The notes beneath the pieces were generated by a model. That model was not told the origin of the DNA. It did not search any database and was given only the letters and a program-made list of their open reading frames with translations. A DNA stretch of 62,900 bases, the filler included, from Bonamia ostreae (lineage: Eukaryota): assembly GCA_040357525.1 (NCBI GenBank). It is 49 parts of 49 records of this genome, joined end to end, with 100 filler letters (N's around TTAATTAATTAA, not from the genome) between each part and the next. Parts side by side here need not be neighbours in the genome. Positions count along the whole stretch, not along the records: positions 1,295 to 2,488 come from JBDODL010002394.1; positions 2,589 to 3,782 come from JBDODL010002395.1; positions 3,883 to 5,076 come from JBDODL010002396.1; positions 5,177 to 6,369 come from JBDODL010002397.1; positions 6,470 to 7,662 come from JBDODL010002398.1; positions 7,763 to 8,955 come from JBDODL010002399.1; positions 9,056 to 10,248 come from JBDODL010002400.1; positions 10,349 to 11,540 come from JBDODL010002401.1; 41 more parts are not named here. One strand, 5' to 3'. Shown here one piece after another: positions 1,295 to 59,400 of this stretch (position 1 is its first letter; every line of letters starts with the position of its first letter). Position numbers and translations under genes: made by a program.

Positions 1295-2488
1295 GGTATC
1301 TTTGTCTCCTGACAATTCGTATTCGTTGTCACAAATCACCTTTATCGTCTTCCCTTGTCTGTGCCCCGATTCGCCAACGACGTTTGAATTTGGTATTGTG
1401 ACAGTACTGCACTTCTCTGAAAGTTAAAGTGGTTACCATGTACACAAAGCAATGTCGGTTTCCAAACAGCGACCAGATTTTCCTTGTCGAATTCACAGTG
1501 CACTGTTCTCGTCTCCTCTTCCAAAACAAATCCAATTTCACAGCCGATAGTGAGACTATCGTTTATTTCGACTCTATTCGGCGTTGTTGTGAATCCGTTT
1601 GAAATTTGGAAAACAGGACATTTTTCTATTTTTTGAAATTTTTTCGATTTCAGAAAAAACTTTTTTGGCAAATGATGCGTCGATTCCAGGTAGCTGCTTT
1701 TGATATTTGGTTGTATATGCACTTTATTGGTGCGTCGACGGATGGTTCATAAATATCGTCACATTTAACGTGCACCGATTCCCCTATTCGCACGTTTTGG
1801 AGATCCGTGCTATCTGAATTCGGAACGAACAACGGTGCACATTTTTCTTATTTACAAAAATTGAAACCAAAAAATAGCTAAATTTTTTAAACGATTGAGT
1901 CGTCGATTTTCCAATTTAATTTAAAAAAAATTTAATTTCAATAAAAATTACAAAAATTTTCGCGCAAAAATTTTATTAGAAACGTGACGACTCATAAAAA
2001 GTGTAACAATTATAATAAAACAAAAATTTAGTAAAAAAATTTCGCACAAAAATAAAAAGTTACAATTTCAAGTATAAAAAGGTTTTAACAAAATTACAAA
2101 AAATAAAAACTTTTTACACAAAGAGGCGACTGACTCCATTTAGCACTGTTCGTTTCGACGTCATATAAACAATTTAAAGTTTTCGGTCCATCTCCAAATT
2201 CAAATTGTTCGTCACATCTCACATTTATCTTATTCTCGATCTCAATTCCCGTTGTTCCAATAACGTTCGAGTTCGGTATTGTGATGGATTCACAAGTCAC
2301 TTTTCATTTTAAGTCAAAACTTTTTTGGCAATAAAAAGATTTTGTCCATTTCGGTCGTTGCTGATTTTGGTCGTATTCACATTTGATGTTTGCGTCGCCA
2401 ATCGCGACGTAGTACAAATTGCATTCCGGGTTGATAACAGTGCCAATTGGCCATTCGAGAATGTCGTCAATGTTACTGTTTGTTATCT
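1295..2488 (-). CDS. Tandem Sushi/CCP-like module protein, partial at both ends, >=5 modules (protist-type contig)
   Basis: Exons 2488-2321, 2299-2111, 1846-1661, 1625-1437, 1416-1295 joined by GT-AG phase-1 introns of 21, 264, 35 and 20 nt. Each complete exon gives ~62 aa with C..I.NS..C...Y/F...C...W....C, e.g. TCESITIPNSN...VRCDEQFEFGDGPKTLNCLYDVETNSAKWSQSPLC. Confidence 0.8.
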
Positions 2489-2927
2489 NNNNNNNNNNNN
2501 NNNNNNNNNNNNNNNNNNNNNNNNNNNNNNNNTTAATTAATTAANNNNNNNNNNNNNNNNNNNNNNNNNNNNNNNNNNNNNNNNNNNNAACATTTTTAAC
2601 TCCTGTATCACTATCATTCCAATTCTTTTCAGATTAGATCTGATGGATCTTTGAATCAAGGGTGACATGAATTGTACAATTCAGGATTCTTGCAAACCTT
2701 TGGTCTTAAGGGCGGCGTAAAACGGTTAGCTTAGATATTGAGAGTGCTACTTTTAACTAATAAGATGACAGATAAGGTCAGTGGATCTATTGTTTTAATT
2801 TTGGATATTGTATTTATAATTTATTTTCTATCATTTCTATTTCCCAATCTAATTCAAATTAGCGGGTATGAGTCCGTTAATTAGATTGTATTCACGACTC
2901 CGAGTGTAATACACTTTCTTACAAATG

Positions 2928-3690
2928 TACCTCTAAAAGGGTCATAAGCCGATGAAAGTCTTCGTTTTTTATATGACGCCTTCAAGTCTCTTTAATGGGG
3001 TATCTGCATTTCTCATGACTTCTTGAGCTGACTGGACCCTTTCATCTGTCAATCCGTCTGCTGTGAAATGTATTTATGAATAAGAAAACGTGTATACTAA
3101 TACTATAATGGTAATATGTACATACTATATATACAAAGAGTCAAAGTTCTAGTATTAGTATTGAACATGAACAATCAATGTTATACATTTCAACTTACCT
3201 CCGAAAAATACAGGTTCAATAATTGCGCCATCTTTGCAAGGAACTATTCTCTTGACAAGTCTTTCATAAACTTGAAATGTCCTGAGTTTTGTTTTCATTA
3301 CAATCCGTTAATCCTAGTGGAAACTTTTAGAAAAAATAAAGATAAATATTCATTTTAATTGCAAATTACAGGGAGTAAGGGAAAATGCTGATGTCCCCAG
3401 ATAGCAACTGTGTAAAAATATGAAAGGCCTATCATTATCCATTCAAATGGTATGGGCAATGTTTGTCATAGACAAACAGATAGGACAATCAACTATATGC
3501 TCCCGAATCTTTAAAGAAATCAATGGCTTATGTATGCTTTCTACATTGATACATGTTAAACTTGTGTCCCAAAGATTCTTTATACCAAATTTGAAAAATG
3601 GGAATGGTAGTTATCAAGAAATTAGTAAAATTCAATTGTTCAGGCATGACAGATGATTGACGATGCATTGATGACGGATGCTGAAATAAA
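2928..3690 (-). pseudogene. Degenerate multi-exon DUF6589-like (transposase-associated) sequence, animal-type contig
   Basis: Pieces read FPLGLTDCNENKTQDI...VPCKDGAIIEPVFFG and DGLTDERVQSAQEVMRNADTPLKRLEGVI...EDFH, resembling the GDQLT.ER...AQ..R.N..TP..RLEG...EDWH pattern; internal stops and frameshifts present. Confidence 0.5.
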
Positions 3691-3882: not shown

Positions 3883-4437
3883 ACCAAAATTCGAAAAAAT
3901 GTAAAAAAGAAATGTTCCAAAAACTCCCACGAACAATTCGCGAAACTGCGCGACGGCGACCAAGTCGATTGGGCAAACTCCCAATCCGGCGGACACGTCT
4001 TAACGACTGGCAACATCTACAAAAAAGGCATTTTCCGATTCCGAAAGAGACCGATGAACACATTTATCTCTCCGATCACCGCTGTCGGCGACTGCTACGC
4101 TTTCCAGCCGTCGAATGGCTACGTCGTCCTCGGAATGCGTTCCCCAATATTCCCAACTACTTTTGTCTACGAGTCGGTCAACGCGGACGCGAACCCGTCG
4201 AGCGGTTCGATGCCGAAGACGGTAAAAGTCTCCGCTGTTGACGAGAATGAGCGTTTGGTCGATTTGTCGCCGGACGGAAATGCGTTTGCTTTGAAGGAAA
4301 GTGAGATTAGACAAAGTTTCGAGTTGAAAAGAATGGAGAAAGCGGTGAAGCGGATTCGAGTCGACTTTGTGGAGAATAACGGGAATAAAGATTTTACGTG
4401 TGTCTACAGAATCCGTGTTTTCGGGGAGAGAAAATGA
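3883..4437 (+). CDS. SUN (Sad1/UNC-84) domain protein, C-terminal part (protist-type contig)
   Basis: Open frame from the contig edge: VDWANSQSGGHV, GDCYAF, SSGSMPKTVKV, and the terminal SUN signature RIRVDFVENNGNKDFTCVYRIRVFG; stop at 4437. Confidence 0.9.
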   Translation, partial: TKIRKNVKKKCSKNSHEQFAKLRDGDQVDWANSQSGGHVLTTGNIYKKGIFRFRKRPMNTFISPITAVGDCYAFQPSNGYVVLGMRSPIFPTTFVYESVNADANPSSGSMPKTVKVSAVDENERLVDLSPDGNAFALKESEIRQSFELKRMEKAVKRIRVDFVENNGNKDFTCVYRIRVFGERK

Positions 4438-4439: not shown

Positions 4440-5076
4440 GTTGTTTTGCGCCATTTTTTGTTGTTGTTTTAAAATACGGTTTTGTCGCTGCGACATTTTT
4501 TGTTGTCGTTTTTAAAAACGGTTTTGTCGCTACGCCATTTTTTGTTTTTTGGGATATTTTGTTGTCGTTTTTAAAAATGATTTTGTTATTGAGCCATTTT
4601 TTGTTTTTTGCGATTTTTTGTTGTCGTTTTTAAAACGGTTTTGTCGCTACGCCATTTTTTGTTTTTTGTGATTTTTTGTTGTCGTTATTAAAAATGATTT
4701 TATCGCTGCGCCATTTATTGTTTTTGTTTTTTTGTGATTTTTTTGTTGTCGTTTTAAAAAACGGTTTTATCGCTGTGCCATTTATTGTTTTTGTTTTTTT
4801 TGCGATTTTTTTGTTGTCGTTTTTAAAAACGGTTTTGTCGCTGCGCCATTTTTTGGTTTTAATTTTTAAAAACGGTTTTGTCGCTGCGCCATTTTTTGGT
4901 TTTAATTTTTTTGTTGTTGTTTTTAAAAACGGTTTTGTCGCTGCGCCATTTTTTGGTTTATGAGATATTTTGTTGTCGTTTTTAAAAACTGTTTTGTCGC
5001 TGCGACATTTTTGTTTTTTGTGATTTTTTGTTGTCGTTTTAAAAAACGGTTTTGTCGTTACGCCATTTTTGTTTTT
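4440..5076. repeat. Imperfect minisatellite, ~50-65 bp unit, about 11 copies
   Basis: Recurrent ttttgttgtcgtttttaaaaacggttttgtcgctgcgccatttt starting just after the SUN stop codon and running to the contig end. Confidence 0.95.
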
Positions 5077-7817
5077 NNNNNNNNNNNNNNNNNNNNNNNN
5101 NNNNNNNNNNNNNNNNNNNNTTAATTAATTAANNNNNNNNNNNNNNNNNNNNNNNNNNNNNNNNNNNNNNNNNNNNTTTAAGGCAACAGCTGTATCACAG
5201 GGATCTGCTGTCTGGGAAGCTACCATGAAATATCAGATAATAATGGATGGAGTTTCCGGGGGAATCCTACATACCTTTTCAAATAATGAGATGTCAAATC
5301 GATGCTCCAATATTTGGTAAAATGAACTAGGTTAACTTACCTACATGTTGAACAATACAAAAAAATATTATCAATAATTTTCCCATTGTGGATATATTGA
5401 TATATACAAGCAAAACACGTAGTCTTTATCACTTCAGATATTCGATGTTGCTAAACGTAAATATAGGGATGTATACAAAACATAGGGAGCCCAAACCCTT
5501 TATAATTCATTTATATACTACCTATTCGGGTCACGTGGCTAGAAAATTTACAAAAATCCCCTCAAAAGTTTCCATGTGGCTGATTGTGATATTTAAAGTG
5601 TCCAAATTTTAGTATCTGGTGTTTTATTTTTAGTTGAATAGACTGGATACAATACAACGATAGACATTGTCTCTTTAACATTGGTAATGTATGAACATGC
5701 ATTTCATTTCAAATGATTTGCAATTTGTTTATTATGTTTTTTAACACTGCCACTTAGATCCACTATTGCTGATACATGCATGTCCAACCGTTTGCTGTCT
5801 TTAAGCCAATGGATTTCTAAAGTGATTTGACTTCCTTGTCTATAGACGGTATTGATGAATAACTCAATGTAGTTGTTTTTAAAGATAATATATCTATAAA
5901 AAAATTAATTAACATTGTACAAGTAAACGTTGTCCGTCTTAGTATATGCATGTATGAACTCGCCAACTGCATATTCTATTGCACACCAAATTCTGAAGCA
6001 ATGGGACGTATCAACATGTTACATACCTTATTTGATCTGATCTTCAGCTGGGGATTTATACTTCCAGGGAAATGTGTTTGAAATAATATCTAAAAGTTCT
6101 TGAAAAAATGTCTAACATTTATTTTAATATAAAGGACTTTGTTTTGGATGTTTAGAAAAGGACATTTGAGTAGTCAGTGCAAGAAGAAACTGAAATACCC
6201 TGTATGTTCACAACTACGCCTTACTATAATGTAAAATGAAAATCAAGTGGTCGGTAAAGAACACAAACCTTCAACATTTGCTACACAAAATAGAGTCTCA
6301 TCAACGTCTTTACAAGTTAAGGGTTACTGATTCGTTACATCGCATTAACCCTTGATATCAGTCACCATTNNNNNNNNNNNNNNNNNNNNNNNNNNNNNNN
6401 NNNNNNNNNNNNNTTAATTAATTAANNNNNNNNNNNNNNNNNNNNNNNNNNNNNNNNNNNNNNNNNNNNTAGCTGCCCAAAAATGCGATATAAAGAAAAT
6501 TTTGGCCCAGCAAAAATTTTAAAAAGTAGCTCTTTCGAATAGTTCATTTTAACAAATTTAAAAGCTCAATTAAACAAGAATGGCTAAATTTGGCCGAACA
6601 AAAAAAATTTTTTTCCGATCAAAATAACCAAAAAGAAATAAGAGAATCGATTTTCTTTAAAAGTATCGAAATAAATTATGATTTTCTGTACAAAGACGGA
6701 AAAGACATTTTTGTTTTGACAAAAAATCGATTTTGTTCAATTTCCGAACATTTTAAAGCTGAAAAAGATAATTGGAAATTTAGTTTTGCGAAGGGCATTT
6801 TTGCAGCGTGGCTGTCTGTGTGTTGTGGTTTGTTCGGTGTTGATTTTATGAAAAAATTTATTTGGTTTCATGACGATTCGAGTGAATAATCAAAATTTTG
6901 TAAAAACAAAATTTCCATTTTTTTTTTATCAAAATTCGCAATTTCAGAACTTAAAAATAAAAAATTTTACTTGATGTAAAATAATTTTTGCTTCTATTTT
7001 TTGTGATTCAAAAGTTAAATCATTTTTGCCAATACGACCAAAAAATTTCAGTTTTTACATTTTAACAATTTNNNNNNNNNNATTTCAAAATCGCTTTTAC
7101 AAACAAAATTTCTTTTTTTGCTGTTTAACAATCTCAAAAATTGGTTTAACTAAACAAAATATTAAAATCGAAAAAATTGTTTTTTGGTCGAAAAAATTGT
7201 TTTCAATTTTTTAATAGAAACAACAAAATATTTTTTGCAGATTTACCATCAAAATGGTTAATTTTTGCAGTTTATTTAAATGGAATGGTTGATTTTAACA
7301 GTTTATCCAGATAAACTTTTAGCACTGACAAAATTTCAGCAATTAATTTTTTTAAAAATTGGTAAATTATTAAAATGGGAAAAGACAAATCCATTTATCA
7401 ATATTTAGTTCCCTCGAAACTGTTATAAAAGACGATTCTTTTTCTGATAGAGCAGATTTTGACTAATATTTCCAAAAATATTAAAAGATTTGTTGCTGTT
7501 AACAAAACGATCAGGCTCAGAATTAAAATTTCTTCCATTTTAAAAACTATCAAATTTGTTTTCCAATAATTTTTAAAACTATCAAAATTTTCGTTTGTTC
7601 AATATCAAAAATAGATTTTTCGTTTTTGTAACATTTCATTATTTTTGCAATTGTTTTAATTGNNNNNNNNNNNNNNNNNNNNNNNNNNNNNNNNNNNNNN
7701 NNNNNNTTAATTAATTAANNNNNNNNNNNNNNNNNNNNNNNNNNNNNNNNNNNNNNNNNNNNTCATTTGACAATGACAGAAAAATACACACACACTTCAT
7801 ATTTAAAATAAGAACAT

Positions 7818-8333: not shown

Positions 8334-8542
8334 CATTAAAAGACATGAACCGAATGCACAAGCTAGTAGGTAGAGTAGAGGACGACAATACGGCCAAAAG
8401 ACATATTGCTTTCTTGGTTGGAAACGTTATCATGCTAAAAGAAATGCCAACACTGAAAAAAGCACTATCTAGTGTAGAGAAAATGCGAATGATGAACTTT
8501 AAAACTATTATAGTATATGTTAAAACTAAAGAAGACAATTAA
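8330..8542 (+). CDS. Small hypothetical protein (~70 aa) translationally coupled to the sigma factor
   Basis: ATGA start/stop overlap at 8330-8333; ORF also overlaps the next gene. Confidence 0.65.
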   Translation: MTLKDMNRMHKLVGRVEDDNTAKRHIAFLVGNVIMLKEMPTLKKALSSVEKMRMMNFKTIIVYVKTKEDN

Positions 8543-8876: not shown

Positions 8877-8955
8877 ACATAGAACAGATATCGATTATGA
8901 TATAGGATATATCTTCTATGTTGAGGAAGAGTGTTATATCTTACAAGAGATTGCT
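8857..8955 (+). CDS. 5' end of a further overlapping hypothetical ORF, cut by the contig end
   Basis: MANKTNKHRTDIDYDIGYIFYVEEECYILQEIA is open to the contig edge and overlaps the previous stop. Confidence 0.5.
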
Positions 8956-11640: not shown

Positions 11641-12640
11641 CGATTTTGTACTTTTGCCATTAGAAAACATGCAAAACAAATTGCGACAATTTAGCGCAGT
11701 CGCTTCAATCGACCACATTTCGTTAAAAAATGAAATTTTGTGCCCCTCTTTACACGACAGCAACTTCAGCAGTTTTTAAATCCCAAATTCAAATTTTTTA
11801 AATCAATTTTGTAAATTTTACAAAAAGAGAAAAATTGGAAAAATGTTAGTAAAAGACTCCGCAAAAAATTTAAAAGAGAGTTAAATCTTTCACAAGTTTA
11901 AAAATTTTTGTCACAAATTTCAAAAGTACAAATCCATTAAAACTGCAATGCAAACGAACGGAATATCAATTTTACAAGGACCGCCTGGAACTGGTTAAAT
12001 TTTGCTAAAATTTAGGAAAAACGAAAACTGTGATTTCACTAATAAATTTATTGCACATCGCCGCTTATTCAAAGTTGTTACAATAAAATTTTACCTCTTA
12101 TTCGTCCAAATTTTTGCTAAATTTTAAATTGCTAAAATTTAGATATTACGAATCTTTATTGAATTGGATCAAATCGGAACATTCCGACAACAACAAAAAA
12201 GTAAAACAAAATTTTGGCGGAATAACTAGTCTTCAAAACATCAATTTAAACACGTTCAAACAATTTTTCCAAAATTTGAAAAATTGAAAAAAGCTAAATT
12301 TTGCTATTTTTTAGTATAATAACTGCGGCATGTTCTAAAACAGTACGCGAAAGCGACATTAGAAGAAAGAAGCCGCGTATTCTAGTTTGCGCACCTTCAA
12401 ATTCAGCTGTAGACGAAATCGTATCAAGACTCGCTGTTCAACAAATGTTCGACTTTGAAGAAAAACTTTATACGCCCAGAATGATCAGGTTGAAAATATT
12501 AAAAAGCAAAATTTTATATTTTAGAAATTTGATTTTAAGTTTTAAAAATTTTTTAAATTAATAGAATTGGAAATTCTGCCAAAATTAGAGAAAACGTTCA
12601 TTTTCACCTTTCTTTAAAACAGAATGTCGACGCTTTTTTC
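11641..12640 (+). CDS. Senataxin/Sen1-like SF1 (Upf1-family) helicase, internal fragment (protist-type contig)
   Basis: Removing introns 11896-11926 (31 nt) and 11994-12015 (22 nt) gives LNLSQYKSIKTAMQTNGISILQGPPGTGKTKT (Walker A); motif Ia RILVCAPSNSAVDEIVSRL; MIR|IG across intron 12489-12564. Confidence 0.9.
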
Positions 12641-12931: not shown

Positions 12932-14058
12932 TTGCTTATTTTTTGAGCGGTAAATTGCACTAACTATTTTTTGTGCTCAAAATCTAAAAAGATATTTACA
13001 AATTTTTTCCAATCAAAATAATAAAAAAAATTGATCAATCTTAATAACTAAGTTATAATGAAAAATTTGAATATTTTTAACGAGTTCTGTCTCATGCTAA
13101 CATCGATTTGTAACAACTGTCAAATCAATCTTATGGTAAAACTGCCAAACTACCAAGATTGGATCAACAATATCGCAAAATTCACTGCTACTGCATTTAA
13201 CATTCACAACGTTTTCTTTGTCTCACTATAAAAAAATTTGCTCCAAATATCTAAAACGATAAATAAAAATTTAGGCGTCTACAAATGGAATCCATTATTT
13301 ATTGATGCTTTGGTCAAAATTCTCTTCTTCAATAATATACTTTAGAAACAAAACACCGGAATTTCTGAGAGATTTTGTTCCGCAAATCACAATCGAGTTC
13401 ATGAACGCAAATCTCTCTCATCTCGCAAATCAAATAAAAGAAAACACTGATTTTGACTGTGATAAATTAGACAATCAATAAAACAATTAATTTTAAAACT
13501 TTGAAATATTAAATTTAGATATAAATCAACCAAAACTTTAATCAGAATTTTTATCAAACAAAATTGTTTTAACAAAAAAAGCCCTTTTAAACGAAGTAGA
13601 AATGACATCAATTTTCCAATTTCTGCCATCACTTTTCCATTCAGATTACGAAAACTCAATAAACTGGGTCAAAAAGAAGTTTGACGGCCATTTCGCGCAA
13701 TTGCAATCTGTTTTGAACGGCTCCGTTCGGCCAAACTCAACCAACAACAATCAATTGCAAATTATCGAAGTCGAAATGGCTTGGATTGTCTACGTCGTCG
13801 CCGCCATTATTTCCGGAGATGTCGCTTTCACGGTCACTCAGTCGAAAAACAAAAAATTGGATGCTGCGATTTCTTCTCTGCCATTAAAAATTGTTCCTTA
13901 TACGATTCTGCGATCGAAGAATATGTTTGAAAATGGTCTGGAGGCAACGCCGTTGTTAGAGAGGGCGTTGCTATGTTTTTTCAAGAATTTTCAGAAAAGT
14001 CATATTCAGATTTACATCTATAAGCCAATTTTGGATCCGGTTGATAAGGATCTTGACG
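12932..14058 (+). CDS. XPO7: Exportin-7 / RanBP16-17 family, internal fragment (protist-type contig)
   Basis: Spliced frame: IFNEFCLML...LMVKLPNYQDWINNIAKFT, GIHYLLMLWSK, EVEMAWIVYVVAAIISG, LERALLCFFKNFQKSHI; these track exportin-7 motifs (HEFCRLL, VHYLLSLW, LTWLVYIIGAVIGG, LELA.L.FF..FRK.YI). Confidence 0.85.
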
Positions 14059-15689: not shown

Positions 15690-16704
15690 TCATCCAAACA
15701 TTATTAATTCAAAATATATATTTTTATCCAATAACATTATCTCAAAATAACAATATCTCAAAATATTTATAAATTTCAGATTATCTTCACTAAATTTTAT
15801 TAAAAAACATTCTGTCTCTTTCTTCCCTCCCAAATCGCTTGACTTCTCTTTTATATTTTCCAATTTTGCCATTTCCTTAAATTTAAAGTTTTCTATTGAA
15901 TGCTTAATCGACTCTTGTGTCAACGCCGGAAACGTTTCCATCCAACTTTTCACTCGATCCAACAAATATGCCGGACATGGATGAGCTTCATTCGCGTGAA
16001 ACAACAGATTAAGCTCATCTTTTCTTTAAAAATAATCGATTTTAAAACGCCACTCCGATCTGTCGAGCGAGATGTTGCGAGCTTATCGCGGCTTTTTTCA
16101 GAGCAAATTTTACTTCGAGAACAGTCTCGAAATGAGGATTGCCGACATTTCCATTCACATTTATTTCGTTCGCCAATTTTTCAACCGATTTCTCAAAATC
16201 GTTCAAATTTTTCGATCTATTTTCTTTCGAAAATTTTCGTTTTGTTGGACCCGTTTCGACCGACTTTTTCGAAAAAATCGAATCGGAATTTTTTGGATCC
16301 GATAATTCGACTTCGATTGCTGTTTCAGAACTATCGAACGAAATTGAAGGAGGCGAAGGACTTTCTGACTGCGATTTTTCAACAACTTTTGGGACGAACA
16401 AAAATCCTCTTTTGATTTTTCCTTCCGATTTTGCTTCGATTTTAAGAACGTTTTCGCTGTAGCCAGTGACAATAATGTCGCAAGTTTCACTTTATTATTT
16501 TTTAAATTTGAATACCTTTGTTGAAGATCAAACGATGTATGCGAATGTATTCTCGGCCGACCTCGGCGCATGTTCGATTCTTCGTCGAAAGGGAGATGCT
16601 CGGGATAATATCTTTAATGAATTTTTGGAAACAGTTTTTCGTATGGCAAGAGAACTTTTTTGTAGATGGATTTGAGCAAGGAAGAGGCGTTTGTGGAAGT
16701 TTCG
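15690..16704 (-). CDS. ARID-domain plus AT-hook protein, 3' part (protist-type contig)
   Basis: Contig edge reads ETSTNASSLLKSIYKKVLLPYE (ARID C-terminal helix); 21-nt intron 16612-16632; then NMRRGRPR (AT-hook); further short introns link to the 16042-16401 and 15690-16004 ORFs. The 3' end is uncertain. Confidence 0.7.
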
Positions 16705-39961: not shown

Positions 39962-40836
39962 AAGATACAAAGACATTCACATCAATCAACCAAGTTTCGA
40001 AGAAGAGATGTGCGTAGTCGAAAACGTCACACCTCACGGTTACAATTTTAAAATCCGGCAGAATGCAGACTAAGAGACACGACATATTCGAGTTCGATCG
40101 TCGTCGACGTGGAATATGTCCGGAACACGACGATTGTCCACAAAAACAATATTGTTGTATAAAGACATAAACAGAAAATCGGCAACATTCCGATGATGCT
40201 CAAAAGCGACAAATGCATTTTAGCGGACAAGACGGAAGAGGAACTATCTTATTTGGAGGAATGCCCCCACGATCCAGGCGGCTATTTTATAGTCAACGGC
40301 ACCGAACGCGTCATTTTGATACAAGAGCAAGTCTTCAAAAACCGCATTTTGGTCGAAAGGAACAAAGACAAAAACATTTCTGCGTCAGTGACAAGTTCCA
40401 CGGAAGCCAGCAAAAGTCGAACGGAAGTTTATTTGAAGAACGAAAGAATGTTTGTCAGGGCAAACAAGTTCACCGAGGACATTCCGGCCGTTGTTCTCTT
40501 AAAAGTTTATAGATTTTTTTTGCATTTTGTAAATTCGGTTAAACGCTAAAATTGAAATTCGGTTTTTTTTTATAAAGGCGATGGGCTTGGAGAGTGACCA
40601 AGAAGTGGTTCATATAGTGGGTTTGGATTATTTAGCAGTGCTATCGCAATCGATTGAACAATGTCGGTCGCTTGGAATAGACACGGCGGAACAAGCACTG
40701 CAATATATCGGGAATAGGATTCGCTATACGAAAGCGTCGAAGAGCAACAGGACTAAAACGGAAGAAGCGAGATTTATTTTGATAAGTGTTGTTTTGTCGC
40801 ACATTCCATCGGAAAATTTTGATTTTTATGAAAAAG
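39962..40836 (+). CDS. POLR3B: RNA polymerase III second-largest subunit (RPC2), 5' region fragment (protist-type contig)
   Basis: TPH|ECRLRDTTYS across 23-nt intron 40039-40061; ECPHDPGGYFIVNGTERVILIQEQ..KNRILVE; ASVTSST..KSRT; EDIP...LK|AMGLESDQEVV, which are RPC2-type rather than RPB2-type. Confidence 0.93.
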
Positions 40837-41262: not shown

Positions 41263-42429
41263 GAAAAATGCGATAAAAACAAAAAGGGATTTATAGCCAA
41301 AAGACTTTGTCCGTCTTTAATTTTTGTAAAAAATGATTTTTCCGCTTATTGCAAAGCTTCTGGTTCAACCAAAATTGAAAATATTCGTAAATTTTAATTA
41401 GAACAAATAAGCGACGTTTTTAAAGAATACGATAAAAATTTTGATTCAATTGGATTAGATGAATCTTATCTCGATCTCTCTTATTCTTTTCAAAATGTTT
41501 AATAAAATACCGATTTGTTATTGAAACTTTGATTTTTACAATTAAAAGAGGGAAATTAACGAAAAGAAAATCAACGAAATCGTCGGAGAAATTAGAAGAA
41601 AGATACACGAAAAGACTGGATTGACCGCTAGTGCTGGCATTGGTTGTAACAGATTATTGGCAAAAATAGCAACTGGTTTTGTAGATAAAAATAGCAATAT
41701 TTTAATCGGCGGCAAAAAATCAATTTTTTTAAAAAATTTTATTTTTCAAAAATTTGTATTTTCGGCGCAAAATAATTGGCTAAAATTTAATAATTCAGAT
41801 AAAAATAAGCCGAACGGGCAATATTTTGTTCCTTTTTGCAAAGAAAAAATATTGAATTTTATGTCACATTTGTCCGTTCGCAAAATTCCGGGTGTTGGAA
41901 AAGTCACCGAACGCATTTTGAAAGTTTAAATTGCGCTAATTTTTTTTTAAATTTAACCAAATATTTTAACCAAAAGGAAATTGGAATTGAAAAATGTAAA
42001 GATATTTTAAAAAATGTTGATTTATTATTCAAGTTTTTTAATTGGCTAAATTTTAAAATTCTGAAAAATTGTTAAAAATCAATAAATTTGACAAAAATAA
42101 AAATTGCTAAAAATCAACAAAAATATCTAAAAATTAACAAAAAAAAGATATTTTAAAGAGAAAACGGTTATTTTTTTGGTAAACTCAGCTTTGGGAATAG
42201 GTTCAATCGAAAAAAGCAAAAATGACCAGCGCAAGAGCATTAGCACAGAACGCGTTTTCAGACCACTAAATAATCGATTCGAATTGGAACAAAAATTGAC
42301 CGAAATTTGTTCTGTTTTAGCCAATGTTAAAATTTCAATATTTTTGCGCAAATTTTGCTTTTTTAACGATTTTCGGACAATTTTGATAAAAAGAGATTTA
42401 AAGATACAAAAATGAGCGCCAAAACGATT
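41263..42429 (+). CDS. POLK: Y-family DNA polymerase kappa (DinB), internal fragment (protist-type contig)
   Basis: GFIAKRLCP, GLDESYLDLS, KTGLTASAGIGCNRLLAKIAT|DKNKPNGQY, VRKIPGVGKVTE, RKSISTERVF, linked by GT-AG introns. Confidence 0.93.
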
Positions 42430-43849: not shown

Positions 43850-44625
43850 AAAGCTCAAAATAAAGCCACAAATTGGATAAAACTTTTGGCAATCTCGTTC
43901 CCGTGAACTTTACGTTTTCGCTGTTAATTTTGTCGACGACATTTTTAACCGCCAAATTTGAAATTTTCTTCGTTTTCTCTTTATCCAAAACCAATTTTTT
44001 GATCACGTGATCAAAATTTTCAATCGCTCTCATTTCGATCTTATTCGGATTCTTTTTATTGGAAACGAGTTTGTGATATGCAAACTTGCAATGTTATTAT
44101 ATCTTCTTTCCTAAATTTAGTGCCATCCAAAACGTCTTCCCAAAATTTCGGCTTTATGTTAAGCTTTTAAATTTATGATGTTTTTGTAATTGCGACATAA
44201 AGCAAAACTTTTTCCACGGCTTCATGCGAGAAAACATTGCCGCTTGTTTTAATTGCGACGATATAACTATTGTCGTTGAAAACCCGAAAAGTTAATGGAC
44301 AATGCAACTTTCCTTTTTCGTTTTTACTGAAATTCAGTTTGATCAAATCCTTCTTTTTTAAGGATTTCCCGGTCACCGGACATTTCCCGAACTTGTCGAT
44401 ATATTCTCTAATATTCGTTTTGTCAAAGACATTGCCGTCTGTTGTGCAAACAGGGCTTTTGAATGGCAACAAAGAAATGGAGCAACAGTCGAACGATAAT
44501 GGCAGAACACGCGGAACGCGTTTTTCTTTGAAACCGCCAAAATCGCGACGCCATTCTGTCGAAGTTATGTGCCTTTTTTTAACGTGTTAAAACATTCTGT
44601 CTTGTTGATGCTGGTTTTTCCCCAT
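43850..44625 (-). CDS. PPIL2: PPIL2/CYP60 U-box cyclophilin-like splicing factor, 5' part (protist-type contig)
   Basis: MGKNQHQQDRM|HITSTEW (21-nt intron 44573-44593), LSFDCCSISLLPFKSPVCTTDG, CPVTGKSL...DLIKLNF, HCPLTFRVF, IVAIKTSGNVFS.EAVE, EDIITLQ. Confidence 0.92.
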
Positions 44626-45347: not shown

Positions 45348-46200
45348 TTATTTGTTGTTCAGCAAACTAACACACAAATGACCATTTCTCATCGAATAAA
45401 CATAAATCAATTTTTTGTTGTTGCTTCTTTTGAACAAAACTCGGCTAATCATATTCGTCTGATATATCCCCTTTTTCTGGTTCCTCGCGAAATTTAGACT
45501 ATTTGCGAAAATTATTTTGCAAAACCTGAACATTTTTTCGTACTGTTTTATCTTTATCGAAATATATTTTTTCGGCTTTGTTATCGAAGGAAACGGCCCT
45601 GAAATCGATATTTTTTTCGGTCCCGCTGGAATTTTCGAACACGGGATGTCACCATTTTCAAAATAAACGACATCCGCGATTCTGACACTGTTGTCACAAA
45701 TCTTGTTATCTTTAAATGCGTCTAGTCCCAACCCGTTCAAATATACAAAACCAATGCTAAATTTTAAAATTGTCAAAAATTGCAAATTTTTTGGATGAAA
45801 AACTTATTTGAGTAAACTAGAAAATATTCATATTTCAATTTTGTTTCAGCAAATTCTGTGAAACTAAATTTGGCAAAATCGAAGGAAACGCTAAATTTTA
45901 ATTTTTGATAACATTGTCGATTCCAAATTTTTGAATCGATTTTGTGTAAAAAATTTGCTTTGTTTTGAAGTCTCTAAATCTATTAGACGAAGTCCCGGAG
46001 GAAAATTGCATTCGGCTAATTTTAAAATTGGGTTAAAAGAGGAATTTTGGATCAAAAGTTTTTTATCAAAAACCGCCGGTGGCCATTATTTTGTCGGTTC
46101 CATCGGGAACCCATTTTGCGGAATGAACGTTGTTTGTGTATTTATAAACATAAATTGGATGATCTGGTGATCTAATGTCCCAAACTTTTATTACCGCATC
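45348..46200 (-). CDS. WD40-repeat protein, 3' part, convergent with TSR1 (protist-type contig)
   Basis: DAVIKVWDIRSPDHP...VHSAKWVPDG..IMATGGFDKKL; a 22-nt intron (gttatcaaaaattaaaatttag) and a second short intron join it to the 45348-45785 ORF. Confidence 0.7.
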
Positions 46201-48940: not shown

Positions 48941-50035
48941 GCTTTTGTGTTGATGACAGTGACATTGGGCAAGCCCAGTTCCTTCACCCTTTTAGCTGAA
49001 AATTAGTGCGGAAACCAAGCACATGGCACCTCGAGAAATTGCTGTCGACCGCAACGACAAAGCCATTTTGATCAAAAACGTTCGAAATTTTCTTCATTTT
49101 TTCGACTATTTGGCATGTTTTGGAGCCAGGAGCAGCGCACATGTCAAGTACTTTGTGACTGGGTTCGATGTCCAACGTGATCGGAGGGATCATAGAAACC
49201 TCTTCTTGTCTCACAATGTTGCCGAAGTCGCTTTCTTCAGTTAGCCATTTGTGCATTCGACTGTTTTCCTGTTTGTTATTTTAATGTTAACATCGATTTT
49301 CTTCATTTCTCGTTTCGATATGTTTGTCTTGAATCCAGGCAGAAACGTTTCGAGGCTGTACCATTTTAACGGTTGAAACTAATGTGAAAGTTGTAATTTT
49401 GTTTTTAATGTGAAAATGACAAGTTTTGTTTTTAATGTGAAAATGACTAGTTTTGTTTTTAAATGTGAAAATGACAAGTTTTGATTTTAAAGTGAAAATG
49501 ACCAGTTTTGTTTTTAAAGTGAAAATGACCAGTTTTGTTTTTAAAGTGAAAATGACAAGTTTTGTTTTTAATGTGAAAATGACAAGTTTTGTTTTTAATG
49601 TGAAAATGACCAGTTTTGTTTTTAAATGTGAAAATATCAAAATGGCTTATTTGCTTTTTGATTCACTTTATATTAACTAGACGCAAAAATCAGCCATTTT
49701 ACAAAAATCGGAAGATTAAGAATTTTATGTCGAACAAAAGTCCAAAAGCTCACCTTGTCCCGAATGTTCTGATTGAGTGCCGAAAAACTCTCTATCAGTT
49801 TATTGTTTCCATTAGATTTGCCTGAAAACCAAAAACAAACTGGAAGTTCAGTCTTTAAGCACTTTTTGAGGGCCGCCGCGTCTTCTTCGCTGTACAGAAC
49901 ACCTTGTTTCCTATAATAACGAATGAAGCTATCCAGTTTTTTGTAATATTTCGCATTAAATTCCTCTTCACGAATTAATTTTTTCATTCCTAGTTTCCTT
50001 TTGTCCGCGGAAGATTTGTCTAACAAGTGCGCCAT
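48941..50035 (-). CDS. NSUN2: tRNA (cytosine-5)-methyltransferase NSUN2/Trm4, 5' part (protist-type contig)
   Basis: FIRYYRKQG, LKTELPVCFW, GNIVRQEEVSMIPPITLDIEPSHKVLDMCAAPGSKT, GFVVAVD...RCHVL; introns 49269-49291 (23 nt), 48996-49015 (20 nt) and ~49379-49753. Confidence 0.93.
49385..49635. repeat. 27-bp minisatellite, about 9 copies, inside the long NSUN2 intron
   Basis: Repeated gtgaaaatgac(a/c)agttttgttttta(a). Confidence 0.95.
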
Positions 50036-55847: not shown

Positions 55848-56007
55848 TAAAAACACGAAAATAGCTTTTCGAATTTTTAGACAAACAGATTTTATTAACC
55901 AAAACACGTACAGTACAAAGCTAATTCCGCAGAAGCGAAAACACTAACCAAAATCCATATACAATTCAAAATTGAAAAATAAAATTTAACGAGGGTTAGA
56001 TTCAACA

Positions 56008-56414
56008 ATGTCCTCAAATCCGACGGTAAACTGCTCTATAATTTAAAGAAAGAAGATCTCAGCCTCCTTTTAAAAGCCGATTGCCACATCGGCGCCAAAA
56101 CGCTCACCAAAAAAATGGCTCCGTACATCTTCAAGAAAGCAACCGACGGGAAATCGCACATAATCGACTTGCACAAGACCTGGCAAAAAATTCACGCCGC
56201 GGCTCTGTTGCTCGTCGCCGTCAAAAACCCGAAAGACATCTGTTTGGTGTCCTCGACCAATTGGGGCAAAAGAAGCATTTTCAAGTTTAGCCAATACGCG
56301 AAAGCTCATTCCATTTCTGGTAGATTCACGCCGGGGACGTTCACAAATCAGATTTGCAAGAGTTTCCGTGAACCAAGCGTGCTCATTGTATGCGATCCTG
56401 AATTGGACAATCAC
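56008..56414 (+). CDS. RPSA: 40S ribosomal protein SA (uS2), 5' part (protist-type contig)
   Basis: MSSNPT|KEDLSLLLKADCHIG (23-nt intron 56026-56048), HIIDLHKTWQKI, SGRFTPGTFTNQ, FREPSVLIVCDP..DNH. Confidence 0.95.
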
Positions 56415-59400
56415 GTTTTTTTTGTTCGGATTTTTTTTAAATTTTAAAATTTATTGTTCGATTTTTTTGTGGCGAGCGACATTATTTTTTTGTTTGGACT
56501 ATTTAAAATTTGTTGNNNNNNNNNNNNNNNNNNNNNNNNNNNNNNNNNNNNNNNNNNNNTTAATTAATTAANNNNNNNNNNNNNNNNNNNNNNNNNNNNN
56601 NNNNNNNNNNNNNNNAATTTTATATCGATCGAAAATTTTAGCAATCATCTTTCCGATTGCACTGAAAATTATCAAACGGAAATGCCTTTGCCGATTTCTC
56701 AGACGACTTGCGGATTTCCAAAAAATATATTAAAAGATTTAGAGCTTATTGAAAATTTTGTATTTTTTGAAAATGATAAATTGTTTTTGGACAAAATTGG
56801 ATTTTGTAAAAACAAAAATTGTTTTGAGCACAAAGGATGGCAATTTTTGTTTGTCAAAGAGTTCGATTTTTGTTTGGCTAAATTGGTTTGAAAAATTTCA
56901 CTTTTTTGCGAAAATTTTGTCGTTATTAATAAAAATTTTTGCGAAATTTTATTCGGCAATAAAAATAAGACTAGAAAAATGCGAAAAATCAAAAACTATT
57001 TAAAGCTGAAAATACGCGTTAAAAGAGATCTCAAAATCATTAATTTGGGTAACAAAAATTTTGACAATTAAAATTTTCATTAAATCAAAACAAAAAAGAT
57101 TCGATGATATCCAAAAATTCGAAAATAGCAAAATTCGATAAAATTGGCGAAAAGAAAAAATCGATTTTGATCAAAATCGAAAACTCGCTAAAATCCTCGC
57201 AACTTTTTAACCATTTGCTAAACCAACTAAATTTGATCAAAACGAACGAAAAGAGCAAAAAAGAACAAAATAACAAAAAAAGAATTTTCAATTCTGAAAA
57301 TTTGACAAAATTTCCAAAACTGACCAAAATTTCAAATTTCTTGCCGCGTTACGAACCAAACGCTTTTTTGCGAAATTCAGTGTGTTTGCCGCCGCCAGTT
57401 TTTCGGGAAAAAGTCTTTTTAATTTTTTCGGAAAAGTGAAATTTGCTTTTCAAAACAATTTTTCACATTTTGATTTTAGGACAAAAAATTAAAGACGACT
57501 GAACGATCGAAGATCAATATTCAACAAACAAACAACTCTTACAAAAAAAGGTTTCGAACCAATATTTATAGAAAAAAATCAAATTTGACAAAATTTTATC
57601 AACAAAAAAATGTTTTTTCGTCGATAATGATTAAACCTCCGAAAATCTTTTCACAAAAAAACAAAAAACAACCAAAAATTGTGCACAAAAAGAGTCAAAA
57701 TTGCCAGCAAACATTGCCCAAAATTAATCAAAAAACAAATCCACCAAAAAAGCAAAATTTGAATGAACAAAACTTTGCAAAATCTAATTCTAANNNNNNN
57801 NNNNNNNNNNNNNNNNNNNNNNNNNNNNNNNNNNNNNTTAATTAATTAANNNNNNNNNNNNNNNNNNNNNNNNNNNNNNNNNNNNNNNNNNNNTATGTAG
57901 ATCGATGCCATCAAATTTAGTTGCTACATGTTCAAATACGATATCTTTCAATTGCATGTAATACACGTGTAGATAATTAATTTGAAATACTTGATTTCTT
58001 TCCTGCTGTATGGTGAGTTTGACATTTAAATGAACATTGAAAATTGCATTACATCTGAGGATTAAACATATTCTTATCATATCTTGAATGAATTTTGTAT
58101 ATCCATGGTTGTTTAGACAAATAGAATATCGTTTTCACGACAGCAAAGGTAAACACTTTTATTCAACTGCATCCAAAACTAAGATGCTTTGATTTAATAT
58201 CGTGAAATGTTGATGCTGTAGATAACTGCTGTTACTATAGTCAAGTCAGACTGTACAGCAATGTAGTAATCAATTTCTAGAATGCAAAAATGTCGATTGA
58301 AATATTTTCAAATTATATCCAACACTACATGTCATTCTGGTAATCTATGCGAGACATACTTTCTAAAGTCAAATATGATAAATCACTATCATTTCGAGAG
58401 AGAAAAAAACCCAACAACGAATAAAGTCTATAGATACGCTCAGTGGCGAGCATAAAACCACGATTCGTACCAAAAATTCTACTCCATTATTTATTTGCAT
58501 ATTTCACACATTTACGGTCACATTTACATGTATGCACACTCATATTGCTTACAACTAAGGCCAGAATTACAACTGATGATGATCTTAGTTCTTCATCTCT
58601 GGCATGCACAGAATTTCAGTAAAAGCATGTAATTCACCGTTTGATCAGGACATTGTTCTTAAAGTGGTTATTATCATAAAATAAGATGGTAAATACTAAA
58701 ACAACGTCGTGGTTTAATTTAATTTCATTCTCTCCTTCTAGAACATACGATAACCAGAACGACGGAACCTTTATTATGTACAGATCAAGAGATGGCAGTG
58801 GAAACATAATGGAGGTACATTCTTGCGCTTTTCGATTTTGACTATTTCCTTAATTACTTCTACACTATTGAACATATTGGACTGAATAAAGAAGTATTTC
58901 GATTAAATTGGATGTCAAATAGGTGCCATTCCGCCAATTTTAACTGTGACAAGATAAAATTTGAGAGTAATTAATCATTTACACGAACATGATGTTTCAT
59001 AAATTAAAACACTGCATTATTCATAAATAGGATTTCGATTGATTTCTTTCACATTCTTTAGCTTCCCTTTNNNNNNNNNNNNNNNNNNNNNNNNNNNNNN
59101 NNNNNNNNNNNNNNTTAATTAATTAANNNNNNNNNNNNNNNNNNNNNNNNNNNNNNNNNNNNNNNNNNNNGGAAAATGTTCTCAAATGATTAATTTATGG
59201 TTATTGAAGAGGATTTGCTGTGAAACATTCTAAAGATCTTGGAAGTAGCATGTTTCATCAAAACTGTAAAAAGAACATTTTTGCCCATAGCAATCAACCA
59301 TAAATTACAATTTAAAGGCTTGCACACCTAGAGGTATGAATGTGAAACATTTCGATTACCTGTAGACACCTATGATATTTTATAAAAAGCGATAACAATC

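What the first reader, a model, noticed from the sequence alone, without database searches (positions are those of the whole stretch)
2300..56420. Protist splice donors are GTT-dominated, with almost no canonical +3A/+5G and no polypyrimidine tract
Seen: donors read gttttg, gttttt, gttaaa, gtttaa, gtttcc (x2), gttaca, gtttta, gttaac, gttatc, gttcaa, gttgaa, with a minority gtaacc, gtaaac, gtattc, gtgata, gtgagc. Acceptors are often A-rich (AAAAG, TAAAG, TTTAG). Host contigs in the same window use GTAAGT. Established: +3 to +6 normally pair with U1 and the U6 ACAGAGA box. Inference: U1/U6 may carry compensatory changes, or donor choice may rely on GT/AG spacing plus AT content. This could be an uncharacterised splicing mode.
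Basis: partly seen in the sequence, partly recalled or inferred. Interest (0 to 1): 0.7.

Follow-up and report, generated by a model that had tools for sequence, protein, structure and literature searches.

The report
Bonamia introns start with GTT
The oyster parasite Bonamia ostreae has ordinary GT-AG introns, many only 20-26 bases long, but their first bases read GTT instead of the near-universal GTA/GTG, so its splicing machinery must find intron starts in an unusual way.

Summary
The window is 53 short contigs joined by N spacers. About 15 are AT-rich and CpG-rich and belong to Bonamia ostreae, by a 98%-identical named NCBI protein. About 33 look like animal host.

I rebuilt 29 complete introns plus one further donor in 10 Bonamia genes.
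- 25 of 30 donors begin GTT, 5 of 30 have a purine at +3, and 1 of 30 has G at +5.
- No donor matches GTAAGT at 5 or more of 6 positions.
- GTT exceeds base composition: P(T after GT) is 0.42-0.47, binomial p about 4e-5.
- In the best-supported subset (deposited gene models, spliced run contigs, homology scoring) 12 of 13 are GTT.
- Acceptors are A-rich (A at -3 in 14 of 29) and have no pyrimidine tract.
- 12 of 29 introns are 20-26 nt long.
- A YTAAM branch-like motif lies near the AG in 20 of 29.

The mechanism could not be tested, because the window holds no snRNA gene and no genome is held. The closest precedent is Entamoeba, with GUUUGU donors and a co-evolved U1. Bonamia differs in lacking +5G and in being degenerate. 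My literature searches found no description of this consensus. I rate it a new variant of a known kind.

The parts
2300..2320 (-). S1, 21-nt intron, GTTTTG..AAAAG, Sushi-repeat gene
   Evidence: Removes an in-frame TGA. Junction ..FYCQK|MTCES... Pfam Sushi on the flanking ORFs. Class C.
1847..2110 (-). S2, 264-nt intron, GTTTTT..ATAAG
   Evidence: Junction ..SPLCVK|KKCAPL.. falls at the same module boundary as S1, S3 and S4. Class C.
1626..1660 (-). S3, 35-nt intron, GTTTTT..AATAG
   Evidence: Junction ..IICQK|KKCPVF... Class C.
1417..1436 (-). S4, 20-nt intron, GTAACC..TTCAG (not GTT)
   Evidence: Junction ..LLCVH|EKCSTV... Class C.
11994..12015 (+). H1, 22-nt intron, GTTAAA..TTTAG, AAA_11 helicase gene
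   Evidence: Splicing restores the Walker A motif GPPGT|GKT. Pfam AAA_11 on the flanking exons. Class C.
12074..12314 (+). H2, 241-nt intron, GTTGTT..TTTAG (alternative donor 12077 GTTACA)
   Evidence: ORF chaining; both candidate donors are GTT. Class C.
12489..12564 (+). H3, 76-nt intron, GTTGAA..AATAG
   Evidence: Junction ..TPRMI|RIGNS... Class C.
13211..13274 (+). X1, 64-nt intron, GTTTTC..TTTAG, exportin-7-like gene (alternative donor 13220 GTCTCA)
   Evidence: Two frame-compatible donors. The choice rests on length fit to a recalled human sequence. Class C.
13459..13581 (+). X2, 123-nt intron, GTGATA..AAAAG (not GTT; alternative acceptor 13596)
   Evidence: The only GT before the stop. 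Pfam TPR_XPO7 on the next exon. Class C.
16612..16632 (-). E0, 21-nt intron, GTTTCC..TAAAG, gene of unknown family
   Evidence: Removes an in-frame TAA. Class D, ORF chaining only.
16490..16515 (-). E1, 26-nt intron, GTATTC..TAAAG (not GTT)
   Evidence: Joins two long ORFs. Class D.
16024..16048 (-). E2, 25-nt intron, GTTTTA..TAAAG
   Evidence: Joins ORFs of 147 and 110 codons. Class D.
40039..40061 (+). R1, 23-nt intron, GTTACA..GGCAG, RNA polymerase III RPC2 gene
   Evidence: My spliced model contains the deposited B. ostreae protein P0125 exactly. Class A.
40154..40174 (+). R2, 21-nt intron, GTTGTA..AACAG
   Evidence: P0125 fits the 21-nt version and not the 18-nt GTATAA version. Class A.
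40505..40577 (+). R3, 73-nt intron, GTTTAT..TAAAG
   Evidence: P0125 is identical. Pfam Rpb2_2 profile position 59 ends one exon and position 60 starts the next. Class A.
41363..41401 (+). P1, 39-nt intron, GTTCAA..ATTAG, DNA polymerase kappa gene
   Evidence: Best of 8 in-frame GT..AG candidates by PolK HMM, 314.8 against 300.4 bits. Pfam IMS positions 76 and 78 flank the junction. Class B.
41497..41548 (+). P2, 52-nt intron, GTTTAA..AAAAG
   Evidence: Best of 3 candidates, all with this donor. Class B.
41676..41798 (+). P3, 123-nt intron, GTTTTG..TTCAG; open in frame if retained
   Evidence: Best of 8 candidates. Human Pol kappa residues 256 and 257 are adjacent across the 41-codon insert. 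Retaining it splits the HMM match. Class B.
41924..41976 (+). P4, 53-nt intron, GTTTAA..AAAAG
   Evidence: Best of 6 candidates, 314.8 against 282.4 bits. The PDB alignment stops at ..ILK. Class B.
42033..42147 (+). P5, 115-nt intron, GTTTTT..AAAAG (runner-up 42071-42188 GTTAAA)
   Evidence: Best of 6 candidates, 314.8 against 306.1 bits; the top three candidates all have GTT donors. Class B.
44573..44593 (-). I0, 21-nt intron, GTTTTA..AAAAG, PPIL2 (U-box) gene
   Evidence: The spliced N-terminus aligns without a gap to P0245, a relative with 74% identity. Class B.
44164..44208 (-). I1, 45-nt intron, GTTTTG..AAAAG
   Evidence: No gap against P0245 at the junction. The alignment to human PPIL2 ends at ..AVEK(V). 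Class B.
44052..44085 (-). I2, 34-nt intron, GTTTGC..AAAAG; the only +5 G
   Evidence: No gap against P0245 at the junction. Class B.
46016..46073 (-). J1, 58-nt intron, GTTTTT..ATTAG, WD-repeat-like gene
   Evidence: The only GT before the stop; the acceptor is less sure. Class D.
45891..45912 (-). J2, 22-nt intron, GTTATC..TTTAG
   Evidence: ORF chaining. Class D.
45757..45803 (-). J3, 47-nt intron, GTTTTT..TTTAG
   Evidence: ORF chaining. Class D.
49269..49702 (-). K1, 434-nt intron with a tandem repeat, GTAAAA..AACAG, NSUN2-like gene (alternative donor 49753 GTGAGC)
   Evidence: The acceptor fits the start of the alignment to human NSUN2. The donor choice rests on a recalled resemblance; PDB gave nothing for the upstream exon. 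Class C.
48996..49015 (-). K2, 20-nt intron, GTTTCC..TTCAG
   Evidence: The alignment to human NSUN2 ends at ..RCHVL(G), where the donor lies. Junction peptide. Class C.
56026..56048 (+). A1, 23-nt intron, GTAAAC..TAAAG (not GTT), ribosomal protein SA gene
   Evidence: The deposited B. ostreae protein P0001 reads MSSNPT|KEDL... Class A.
56415..56515 (+). A2, donor GTTTTT; the intron runs off the contig
   Evidence: Contigs of runs X6 and X4, from two studies, leave the contig at 56414 and continue in letters that I translate as PIKEASYVNI. This resembles the next stretch of homolog P0002. P0001 ends ..DPELDNH. Class A.

Best explanation
These are ordinary GT-AG spliceosomal introns of Bonamia ostreae (Haplosporida, Rhizaria) with a lineage-specific 5' splice site: GU, then U at +3, then a weaker U/A preference, with no +5 G. 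Their 3' ends are A-rich, carry a likely branch motif (YUAAM) a few bases before the AG, and have no pyrimidine tract. Four in ten are only 20-26 nt long.

What is shown:
- the GTT bias and its excess over base composition;
- agreement with deposited gene models;
- one donor where RNA-like run contigs leave the genome exactly at the predicted exon end.

What is inferred is the mechanism. A canonical U1 5' end cannot pair with these donors. I think the most likely answer is that the 5'-splice-site reader has co-evolved: a U1 snRNA with an A-rich pairing segment complementary to GUUUU, as in Entamoeba. U at +3 and +4 would in addition suit the G and A of the U6 ACAGA box. I put about 0.9 on the GTT bias being real genome-wide, and about 0.4 on the co-evolved U1.
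For: Organism:
- The SA exon is 98% identical to NCBI 'structural constituent of ribosome, partial [Bonamia ostreae]' on an 1178-nt contig.
- The RPC2 model contains 'RPC2, partial [Bonamia ostreae]' exactly.

Bias:
- 25 of 30 donors are GTT, against 0.466 or 0.42 expected (p = 3.8e-5 and 4.1e-6).
- In classes A and B, 12 of 13 are GTT (p = 7.8e-4).

Independent support for the gene models:
- P0001 and P0125 use A1, R1, R2 and R3.
- Run contigs of two studies break exactly at 56414.
- For Pol kappa, the best-scoring of 31 in-frame GT..AG candidates has a GTT donor in 5 of 5 introns, while 17 of the 31 candidates have one.
- The PPIL2 model has no gap against P0245 at any of its three junctions.
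- Pfam profile positions are adjacent across R3 and P1.

No fit to canonical U1:
- 0 of 30 donors match GUAAGU at 5 or more of 6 positions, mean 2.67.
- The mean is 4.4 against their own consensus GUUUUA, and 15 of 30 reach 5 or more.
- By my recollection, that is about as degenerate as donors in intron-rich species that do use U1 pairing.
- GTRAGT occurs 0 times in 16.6 kb, both strands, against 6.2 expected under a first-order Markov model, P(0) = 0.004.

Precedent:
- Entamoeba has GUUUGU donors with U1 ACAAAC, and the authors note the U6 ACAGA pairing (passages read).
Against: - The sample is small: 30 donors from 10 genes on 10 contigs.
- I allowed only GT-AG boundaries.
- 17 of the 30 donors (classes C and D) rest on motif logic or ORF chaining that I chose by eye after I already knew the pattern.
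- Positions +4 to +6 carry almost no information, 0.07-0.17 bits over intron background on the 28-donor set. Any fixed U1 partner would therefore pair weakly, and by A-U pairs only.
- No U1 or U6 gene could be inspected.
- In the related mikrocytids only U2, U4 and U6 snRNAs were found (PMC10245619, passages), which favours the U1-poor rival.
- The B. ostreae genome paper calls its introns 'canonical' (PMC11069148, passages).
Confidence: 0.4

Rival explanations
1. U1-poor or U1-free recognition. The donor is little more than GU. Introns are defined as units by their short length, their AT-richness and a branch-site-plus-AG module. The 5' end is fixed late by U6 and U5, or by a U-binding protein of the TIA-1/Nam8 kind. 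This would be a step towards the 16-17-nt introns and reduced spliceosome of mikrocytids.
For: - Only +3 carries clear information beyond GT: 0.67 bits, with +4 to +8 at 0.17 bits or less.
- 12 of 29 introns are 20-26 nt.
- YTAAM lies in the last 25 nt of 20 of 29 introns, against 9.8 +/- 2.6 in shuffles, with 0 of 2000 shuffles reaching it. In one search, on 27 introns, it was present in 34% of AT-rich background windows.
- U at +3 and +4 can pair with U6 ACAGA.
- Mikrocytids have 17-19 spliceosomal proteins, and only U2, U4 and U6 were found there.
Against: - I chose the motif after looking at the data.
- U6 pairing predicts G at +5, which is seen in 1 of 30 donors. Mean possible pairs with ACAGA are 2.77 of 5, no better than the 3 of 5 for GUAAGU.
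- The GO tables of the genome paper place the loss of splicing genes in the paramyxid-mikrocytid ancestor, not in Bonamia.
- 6 of 29 introns are longer than 80 nt, up to 434 nt.
Confidence: 0.35
2. Composition only. The machinery is canonical and tolerant, and T at +3 simply reflects T-rich intron starts in a genome whose introns are about 78% A+T.
For: - Introns average 22% G+C.
- T already follows 42-47% of all GT dinucleotides.
- +4 and +5 are close to background.
Against: - 25 of 30 exceeds each of the three backgrounds tried (p from 3e-7 to 4e-5).
- A is the commonest base inside introns (0.415) yet holds +3 in only 4 of 30 donors.
- By my recollection, other AT-rich protists such as Plasmodium and Dictyostelium keep GTA donors.
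Confidence: 0.1
3. Artefact of gene modelling. Boundaries were misplaced by me, by the first reader or by the annotation pipeline, and the true donors are conventional.
For: - Classes C and D (17 donors) have no outside check.
- X1, K1, H2 and P5 have alternative boundaries.
- The deposited models come from trained predictors.
Against: - A2 is fixed by run contigs from two studies, with no base ambiguity at the break.
- Homology scoring picked GTT donors over GTA and GTC alternatives by 14 to 32 bits in P1, P3 and P4.
- The PPIL2 and RPC2 junctions are exact.
- No GTRAGT exists anywhere in these contigs to serve as the 'true' donor.
Confidence: 0.05

Closest known systems
Entamoeba 5' splice site GUUUGU(U) with a co-evolved U1 snRNA (pairing segment ACAAAC). 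Roy & Bowser, bioRxiv 10.1101/2022.06.08.495308, passages read; they cite Davis et al. 2007.
   Same: U at +3 and +4 instead of A. AT-rich short introns. The branch motif lies close to the AG. Standard Rfam searches had missed the U1.
   Different: - Entamoeba is strict: 88-90% GUUUGU and 97-98% GUUUGN, and it keeps +5 G. Bonamia has +5 G in 1 of 30 donors, no exact GUUUGU, and 8 of 30 matching it at 5 or more of 6 positions.
- The two belong to different supergroups, Amoebozoa and Rhizaria.
- The U1 of Bonamia is unknown.
Mikrocytid introns (Mikrocytos mackini, Paramikrocytos canceri). PMC10245619, abstract and passages read.
   Same: Same class, Ascetosporea. Extremely short introns. The spliceosome there is reduced, and no U1 was found.
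   Different: - Mikrocytid introns are all 16 or 17 nt and highly conserved in sequence. Bonamia's range from 20 to 434 nt and are degenerate.
- The mikrocytid consensus is given only in a figure, which I could not read, so I cannot say whether it also starts GTT.
Lineages with GUAUGU donors and an unchanged U1: Saccharomycotina, Giardia, Trichomonas. As summarised in the introduction of the same preprint.
   Same: A preferred donor that does not fully match U1.
   Different: There the change is at +4 only, +3 A and +5 G stay, and the sites are strict. In Bonamia +3 itself is U.
Tiny-intron genomes: Stentor, Paramecium and the chlorarachniophyte nucleomorph. Seen only in the reference list of PMC10245619; details are recalled.
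   Same: A class of introns of about 15-26 nt. Retention mostly gives a stop: 24 of 27 here, and 7 of 8 introns whose length is a multiple of three carry an in-frame stop.
   Different: As I recall, those keep GTA donors. Bonamia also has introns of 34-434 nt.

Membership tests
U2-type GT-AG spliceosomal introns | GT at the 5' end and AG at the 3' end | tested here: met
   29 of 29 complete introns, but I searched only for GT..AG. It is independent of that assumption only for A2 (run contigs) and for the junctions fixed by P0001, P0125 and P0245.
U2-type GT-AG spliceosomal introns | Absent from the mature RNA | tested here: inconclusive
   Contigs of X6 and X4 skip from 56414 into the next exon. 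The run kinds are guesses ('RNA?', '?'), and only one donor could be laid.
U2-type GT-AG spliceosomal introns | Donor complementary to the U1 5' end (GTRAGT-like) | tested here: not met
   0 of 30 match GTAAGT at 5 or more of 6 positions. +3 is a purine in 5 of 30 and +5 is G in 1 of 30.
U2-type GT-AG spliceosomal introns | Pyrimidine tract before the AG, and Y at -3 | tested here: not met
   Positions -9 to -4 are 45-69% A. At -3: A 14, T 9, C 6 of 29.
U2-type GT-AG spliceosomal introns | Branch-site motif of the yUnAy kind | tested here: inconclusive
   YTAAM in 20 of 29 against 9.8 expected. I chose the motif after seeing the data, and no lariat data exist.
Entamoeba-type GUUUGU donors | U at +3 and +4 | tested here: met
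   +3 U in 25 of 30 and +4 U in 19 of 30.
Entamoeba-type GUUUGU donors | G at +5 and a near-invariant hexamer | tested here: not met
   +5 G in 1 of 30. No exact GUUUGU.
Entamoeba-type GUUUGU donors | U1 snRNA with a complementary pairing segment | not testable with these tools
   No snRNA in the window and no genome held.
U12-type (minor) introns | Donor [AG]TATCCTT | tested here: not met
   None of the 30 donor hexamers listed begins GTATCC or ATATCC.
Mikrocytid-type introns | Length 16-17 nt | tested here: not met
   The shortest is 20 nt and the median is 39 nt.

The most novel reading that the evidence does not exclude
Ascetosporean parasites as a group may have given up U1-type base pairing at the 5' splice site. 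Bonamia would then be the intermediate stage: GU plus U-rich degenerate donors, a fused branch-site/AG module, and a large class of 20-26-nt introns. That path would end in the 16-17-nt introns and minimal spliceosome of mikrocytids. If so, one clade would offer a graded series for studying how a spliceosome works without U1.
Probability: 0.3. Interest if true: 0.75.

Novelty: new variant of a known kind. Interest (0 to 1): 0.58.

Why it matters
A purine at +3 and G at +5 of the donor are among the most conserved splicing signals in eukaryotes. According to the preprint I read, Entamoeba's change at two donor positions was 'unprecedented', and it gave the most direct evidence available for co-evolution of introns and snRNAs.

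A second, unrelated lineage with U at +3, and with +5 G lost as well, would help answer two questions:
- Is such a shift always matched by a changed U1?
- How far can donor information decay before introns must shrink?

There is also a practical side. Gene predictors trained on standard signals will mis-model genes of this commercially important oyster pathogen and its relatives. Introns of 20-26 nt are easily missed by default aligner settings.

Tried and rejected
- Whole genome: none is held, so no genome-wide logo and no snRNA search were possible.
- Rfam on the window: 0 matches at gathering. At E up to 5 there were only two chance-level matches, mir-9436 and SgrS.
- The look-up of sequencing runs: no RNA holder is listed. 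X4 and X6 are guesses.
I then laid one contig. No joints were listed there, the 23-nt intron A1 was not bridged, and stretches without cover say nothing.
- PDB searches gave nothing for the upstream NSUN exon or the middle XPO7 exon. K1 and X1 therefore stay ambiguous.
- A search for longer relatives of the Pol kappa exon listed no B. ostreae entry among its best 120, so no deposited model could be compared for that gene.
- A blind scan for 16-30-nt GT..AG segments joining open frames gave 75 candidates, most of them GC-rich and inside coding sequence, with 6 of my introns among them. It was too noisy to give an unbiased estimate.
- Pairing between intron ends: the longest run averages 4.67 for own ends against 4.18 +/- 0.20 for swapped partners, and 25 of 2000 permutations reach it (27 introns). 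This is a weak post-hoc hint, and I did not build on it.
- GTAAGT depletion: 0 against 11.0 expected from base composition looked striking, but the expectation is only 3.6 under a first-order Markov model, and 8 of 90 hexamers with the same letters also have 0.
- Contig 33540-34724 has three ORFs in three frames with no GT-AG solution. Contigs 56616-57793, 6470-7662 and 37394-38577 gave no gene model. All were left out of the counts.
- Supplements of PMC11069148: the 4 files held as text contain only GO enrichment tables, with nothing on U1 or splice sites. Other supplements that I could not see may hold intron statistics.
- The mikrocytid consensus is only in Fig. 3 of PMC10245619 and could not be read.
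- Literature searches found no description of a Bonamia or haplosporidian donor consensus: Ascetosporea + introns + splice, Bonamia ostreae + intron, Haplosporidia + splice site, Bonamia + spliceosom, haplosporidian + actin + intron. Subscription journals are not covered.
- Earlier notes of this scan: nothing on this genome or on Bonamia.

Full report
**What the window is**

The 62.9-kb window is not one locus. It holds 53 contigs of about 1.18 kb, sorted by length and joined by N runs with a ttaattaattaa spacer. The contigs fall into groups:
- About 33 contigs (35.5 kb) have G+C near 0.33 and depleted CpG. They carry animal-type domains such as BIR, and an SRCR-like ORF that I named by eye. 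They look like host DNA.
- About 15 contigs (16.6 kb) are AT-rich with a CpG observed/expected ratio mostly above 1.3.
- Five contigs are of unclear origin.

The AT-rich set is Bonamia ostreae, a haplosporidian (Rhizaria) parasite of oysters. Two results show this:
- The ribosomal protein SA exon is 98% identical to an NCBI protein named 'structural constituent of ribosome, partial [Bonamia ostreae]', which lies on a contig of 1178 nt, the length of this contig.
- The RPC2 gene model contains 'DNA-directed RNA polymerase III subunit RPC2, partial [Bonamia ostreae]' exactly.

**Rebuilding the introns**

I translated each Bonamia contig in three frames and listed all frame-compatible GT..AG pairs between neighbouring ORFs. 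I then fixed coordinates. The result is 29 complete introns and one further donor in 10 genes. I graded them by the kind of evidence.

*Class A: 5 donors fixed by deposited models or run contigs.*
- P0125 is contained letter for letter in my RPC2 model with introns R1 (23 nt), R2 (21 nt, not the 18-nt alternative) and R3 (73 nt).
- P0001 reads MSSNPT|KEDL.., which gives the 23-nt intron A1, and it ends at ..DPELDNH.
- Contigs of runs X6 and X4, from two studies, leave the contig exactly at 56414. They continue in letters that I translate as PIKEASYVNI. This resembles the stretch that follows in homolog P0002.

*Class B: 8 donors fixed by homology to fetched sequences.*
- For DNA polymerase kappa I built an HMM from fetched homologs and scored every stop-free, in-frame GT..AG alternative within 60 nt. 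My five introns were the top choice each time. They were ahead by 14 to 32 bits wherever the runner-up had a different, non-GTT donor.
- Human Pol kappa residues 256 and 257 are adjacent across the 41-codon P3.
- The spliced PPIL2 model shows no gap against P0245, a relative with 74% identity, at any of its three junctions.
- Pfam profile positions are adjacent across R3 (59|60) and P1 (76|78).

*Class C: 11 donors resting on motif or domain logic.*
- Splicing H1 restores the Walker A motif GPPGT|GKT.
- Four Sushi modules break at the same place.
- The NSUN2 alignment to the human protein stops where K2 starts.

*Class D: 6 donors resting on ORF chaining alone.*

| Measure | Result |
|---|---|
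| Donors beginning GTT | 25 of 30 |
| GTT by class | A 4 of 5, B 8 of 8, C 8 of 11, D 5 of 6 |
| Base at +3 | T 25, A 4, G 1 |
| Base at +4 | T 19, A 7 |
| Base at +5 | T 17, A 8, C 4, G 1 |

The five exceptions are GTAACC, GTGATA, GTATTC, GTAAAA and GTAAAC.

The bias is more than composition:
- T follows 560 of 1202 GT dinucleotides in these contigs, and 21 of 50 GT inside introns.
- The binomial p is 3.8e-5 and 4.1e-6 for all 30 donors, and 7.8e-4 for classes A and B alone, where 12 of 13 are GTT.
- A is the commonest intron base (0.415) yet rare at +3.
- On the 28-donor set, only +3 carries clear information beyond GT, at 0.67 bits. Positions +4 to +8 are at or below 0.17 bits.
- No donor matches GUAAGU at 5 or more of 6 positions.
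- GTRAGT does not occur at all in the 16.6 kb. That is only a mild depletion once dinucleotides are modelled: 6.2 expected, P(0) = 0.004.

- A at -3 in 14 of 29 introns.
- 45-69% A at positions -9 to -4.
- No pyrimidine tract.

'gttaac' is not a supported donor. That host contigs 'use GTAAGT' was not shown.

**Further anatomy**
- Twelve of 29 introns are 20-26 nt, 11 are 34-76 nt and 6 are 115-434 nt.
- Retention would give a premature stop in 24 of 27 introns tested. Seven of the 8 whose length is a multiple of three carry an in-frame stop, and the exception is P3.
- A motif YTAAM lies in the last 25 nt of 20 of 29 introns, against 9.8 +/- 2.6 in shuffles. The candidate branch A is often 7-13 nt from the 3' end. 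I chose this motif after seeing the data.

**How it most likely works**

These are GT-AG introns. At A2, RNA-like run contigs leave the genome at the donor, and A1, A2 and R1-R3 are already modelled in the public annotation. This is not a new kind of element.

A standard U1 5' end could pair with little more than the GU. I see two readings.

- *Co-evolved U1 (about 0.4).* The U1 has an A-rich pairing segment. The donors match their own consensus GUUUUA at a mean of 4.4 of 6 positions, which as I recall is as good as donors of intron-rich species do against U1. Entamoeba and Mastigamoeba show that such compensatory changes happen.
- *U1-poor recognition (about 0.35).* Recognition would rely on short length, AT-richness, the branch/AG module and late U6/U5 contacts. 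U at +3 and +4 can pair with the G and A of ACAGA, but the predicted +5 G is missing. The mikrocytid relatives, where only U2, U4 and U6 were found, point this way.

Composition alone (about 0.1) and modelling artefact (about 0.05) are unlikely. None of this could be tested, because the window holds no snRNA gene and no genome is held.

**Comparison with what is known**
- The closest case is the Entamoeba donor GUUUGU(U) with U1 ACAAAC (preprint, passages read). It shares U at +3 and +4. It differs because Entamoeba is strict and keeps +5 G, while Bonamia is degenerate and lacks it.
- Mikrocytid introns are in the same class of parasites but are 16-17 nt and uniform.
- The B. ostreae genome paper states only that the species 'carries canonical introns', with a mean of 2 per mRNA (PMC11069148, passages).
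- Five full-text searches found no description of a Bonamia or haplosporidian splice consensus. The library lacks most subscription journals, and some supplements could not be seen.

**Verdict**

It is a new variant of a known kind: atypical 5' splice sites in reduced parasites. It rests on 30 donors from one window, and its mechanism is open. It deserves a genome-wide logo and a relaxed U1 search.

Noticed in passing
whole window; e.g. 20672-21860, 59171-60347, 27110-28296: About 33 of the 53 contigs (35.5 kb) are CpG-depleted with G+C near 0.33. They carry animal-type features: a BIR domain, an SRCR-like ORF (named by eye) and a retroelement-like ORF. They sit among contigs of the parasite, so host DNA appears to be mixed into this assembly.
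   Followed up: partly
7763-8955: This contig encodes an ECF-type sigma-70 factor (Pfam Sigma70_r2, r4_2) followed by a second ORF. It is probably bacterial or phage DNA in the mix.
   Followed up: no
4440-5076: Directly after the stop codon of the SUN-domain gene (3883-4437) comes a long T-rich tandem array of near-identical units of about 60 nt that runs to the contig end.
   Followed up: no
49290-49660: The 434-nt NSUN intron K1 is mostly a tandem repeat of about 27 nt, which reads as LKTKLVIFT in one frame.
   Followed up: no
24536-25722 and 36110-37293: Two contigs have much higher G+C (0.49 and 0.44) and long uninterrupted ORFs. One is an eIF5B fragment of 374 aa. The other is a 336-aa ORF with no Pfam match. 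Whether they are Bonamia or a third organism is unclear.
   Followed up: no
33540-34724: Three consecutive ORFs of 109, 128 and 149 aa lie on the minus strand in three different frames. They have no Pfam match, and no GT-AG intron can join them. These may be frameshifts, another organism or another kind of break.
   Followed up: partly
41676-41798: Intron P3 of the Pol kappa gene is 123 nt and stays open in frame. If retained it would add 41 residues rather than stop translation, unlike 7 of the other 8 introns whose length is a multiple of three.
   Followed up: partly
43860-43883: After ..TGTRLPK the PPIL2 frame runs into another GTTTTA, while relative P0245 continues differently. This is probably a fourth GTT donor, but its acceptor is not fixed before the contig end. 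It was not counted.
   Followed up: no
40860-41145: The RPC2 contig ends in about 280 nt of A-rich low-complexity sequence made of repeated aaaaat/aaaaac units, after a possible GTCTTT donor. The next exon is not on the contig.
   Followed up: no
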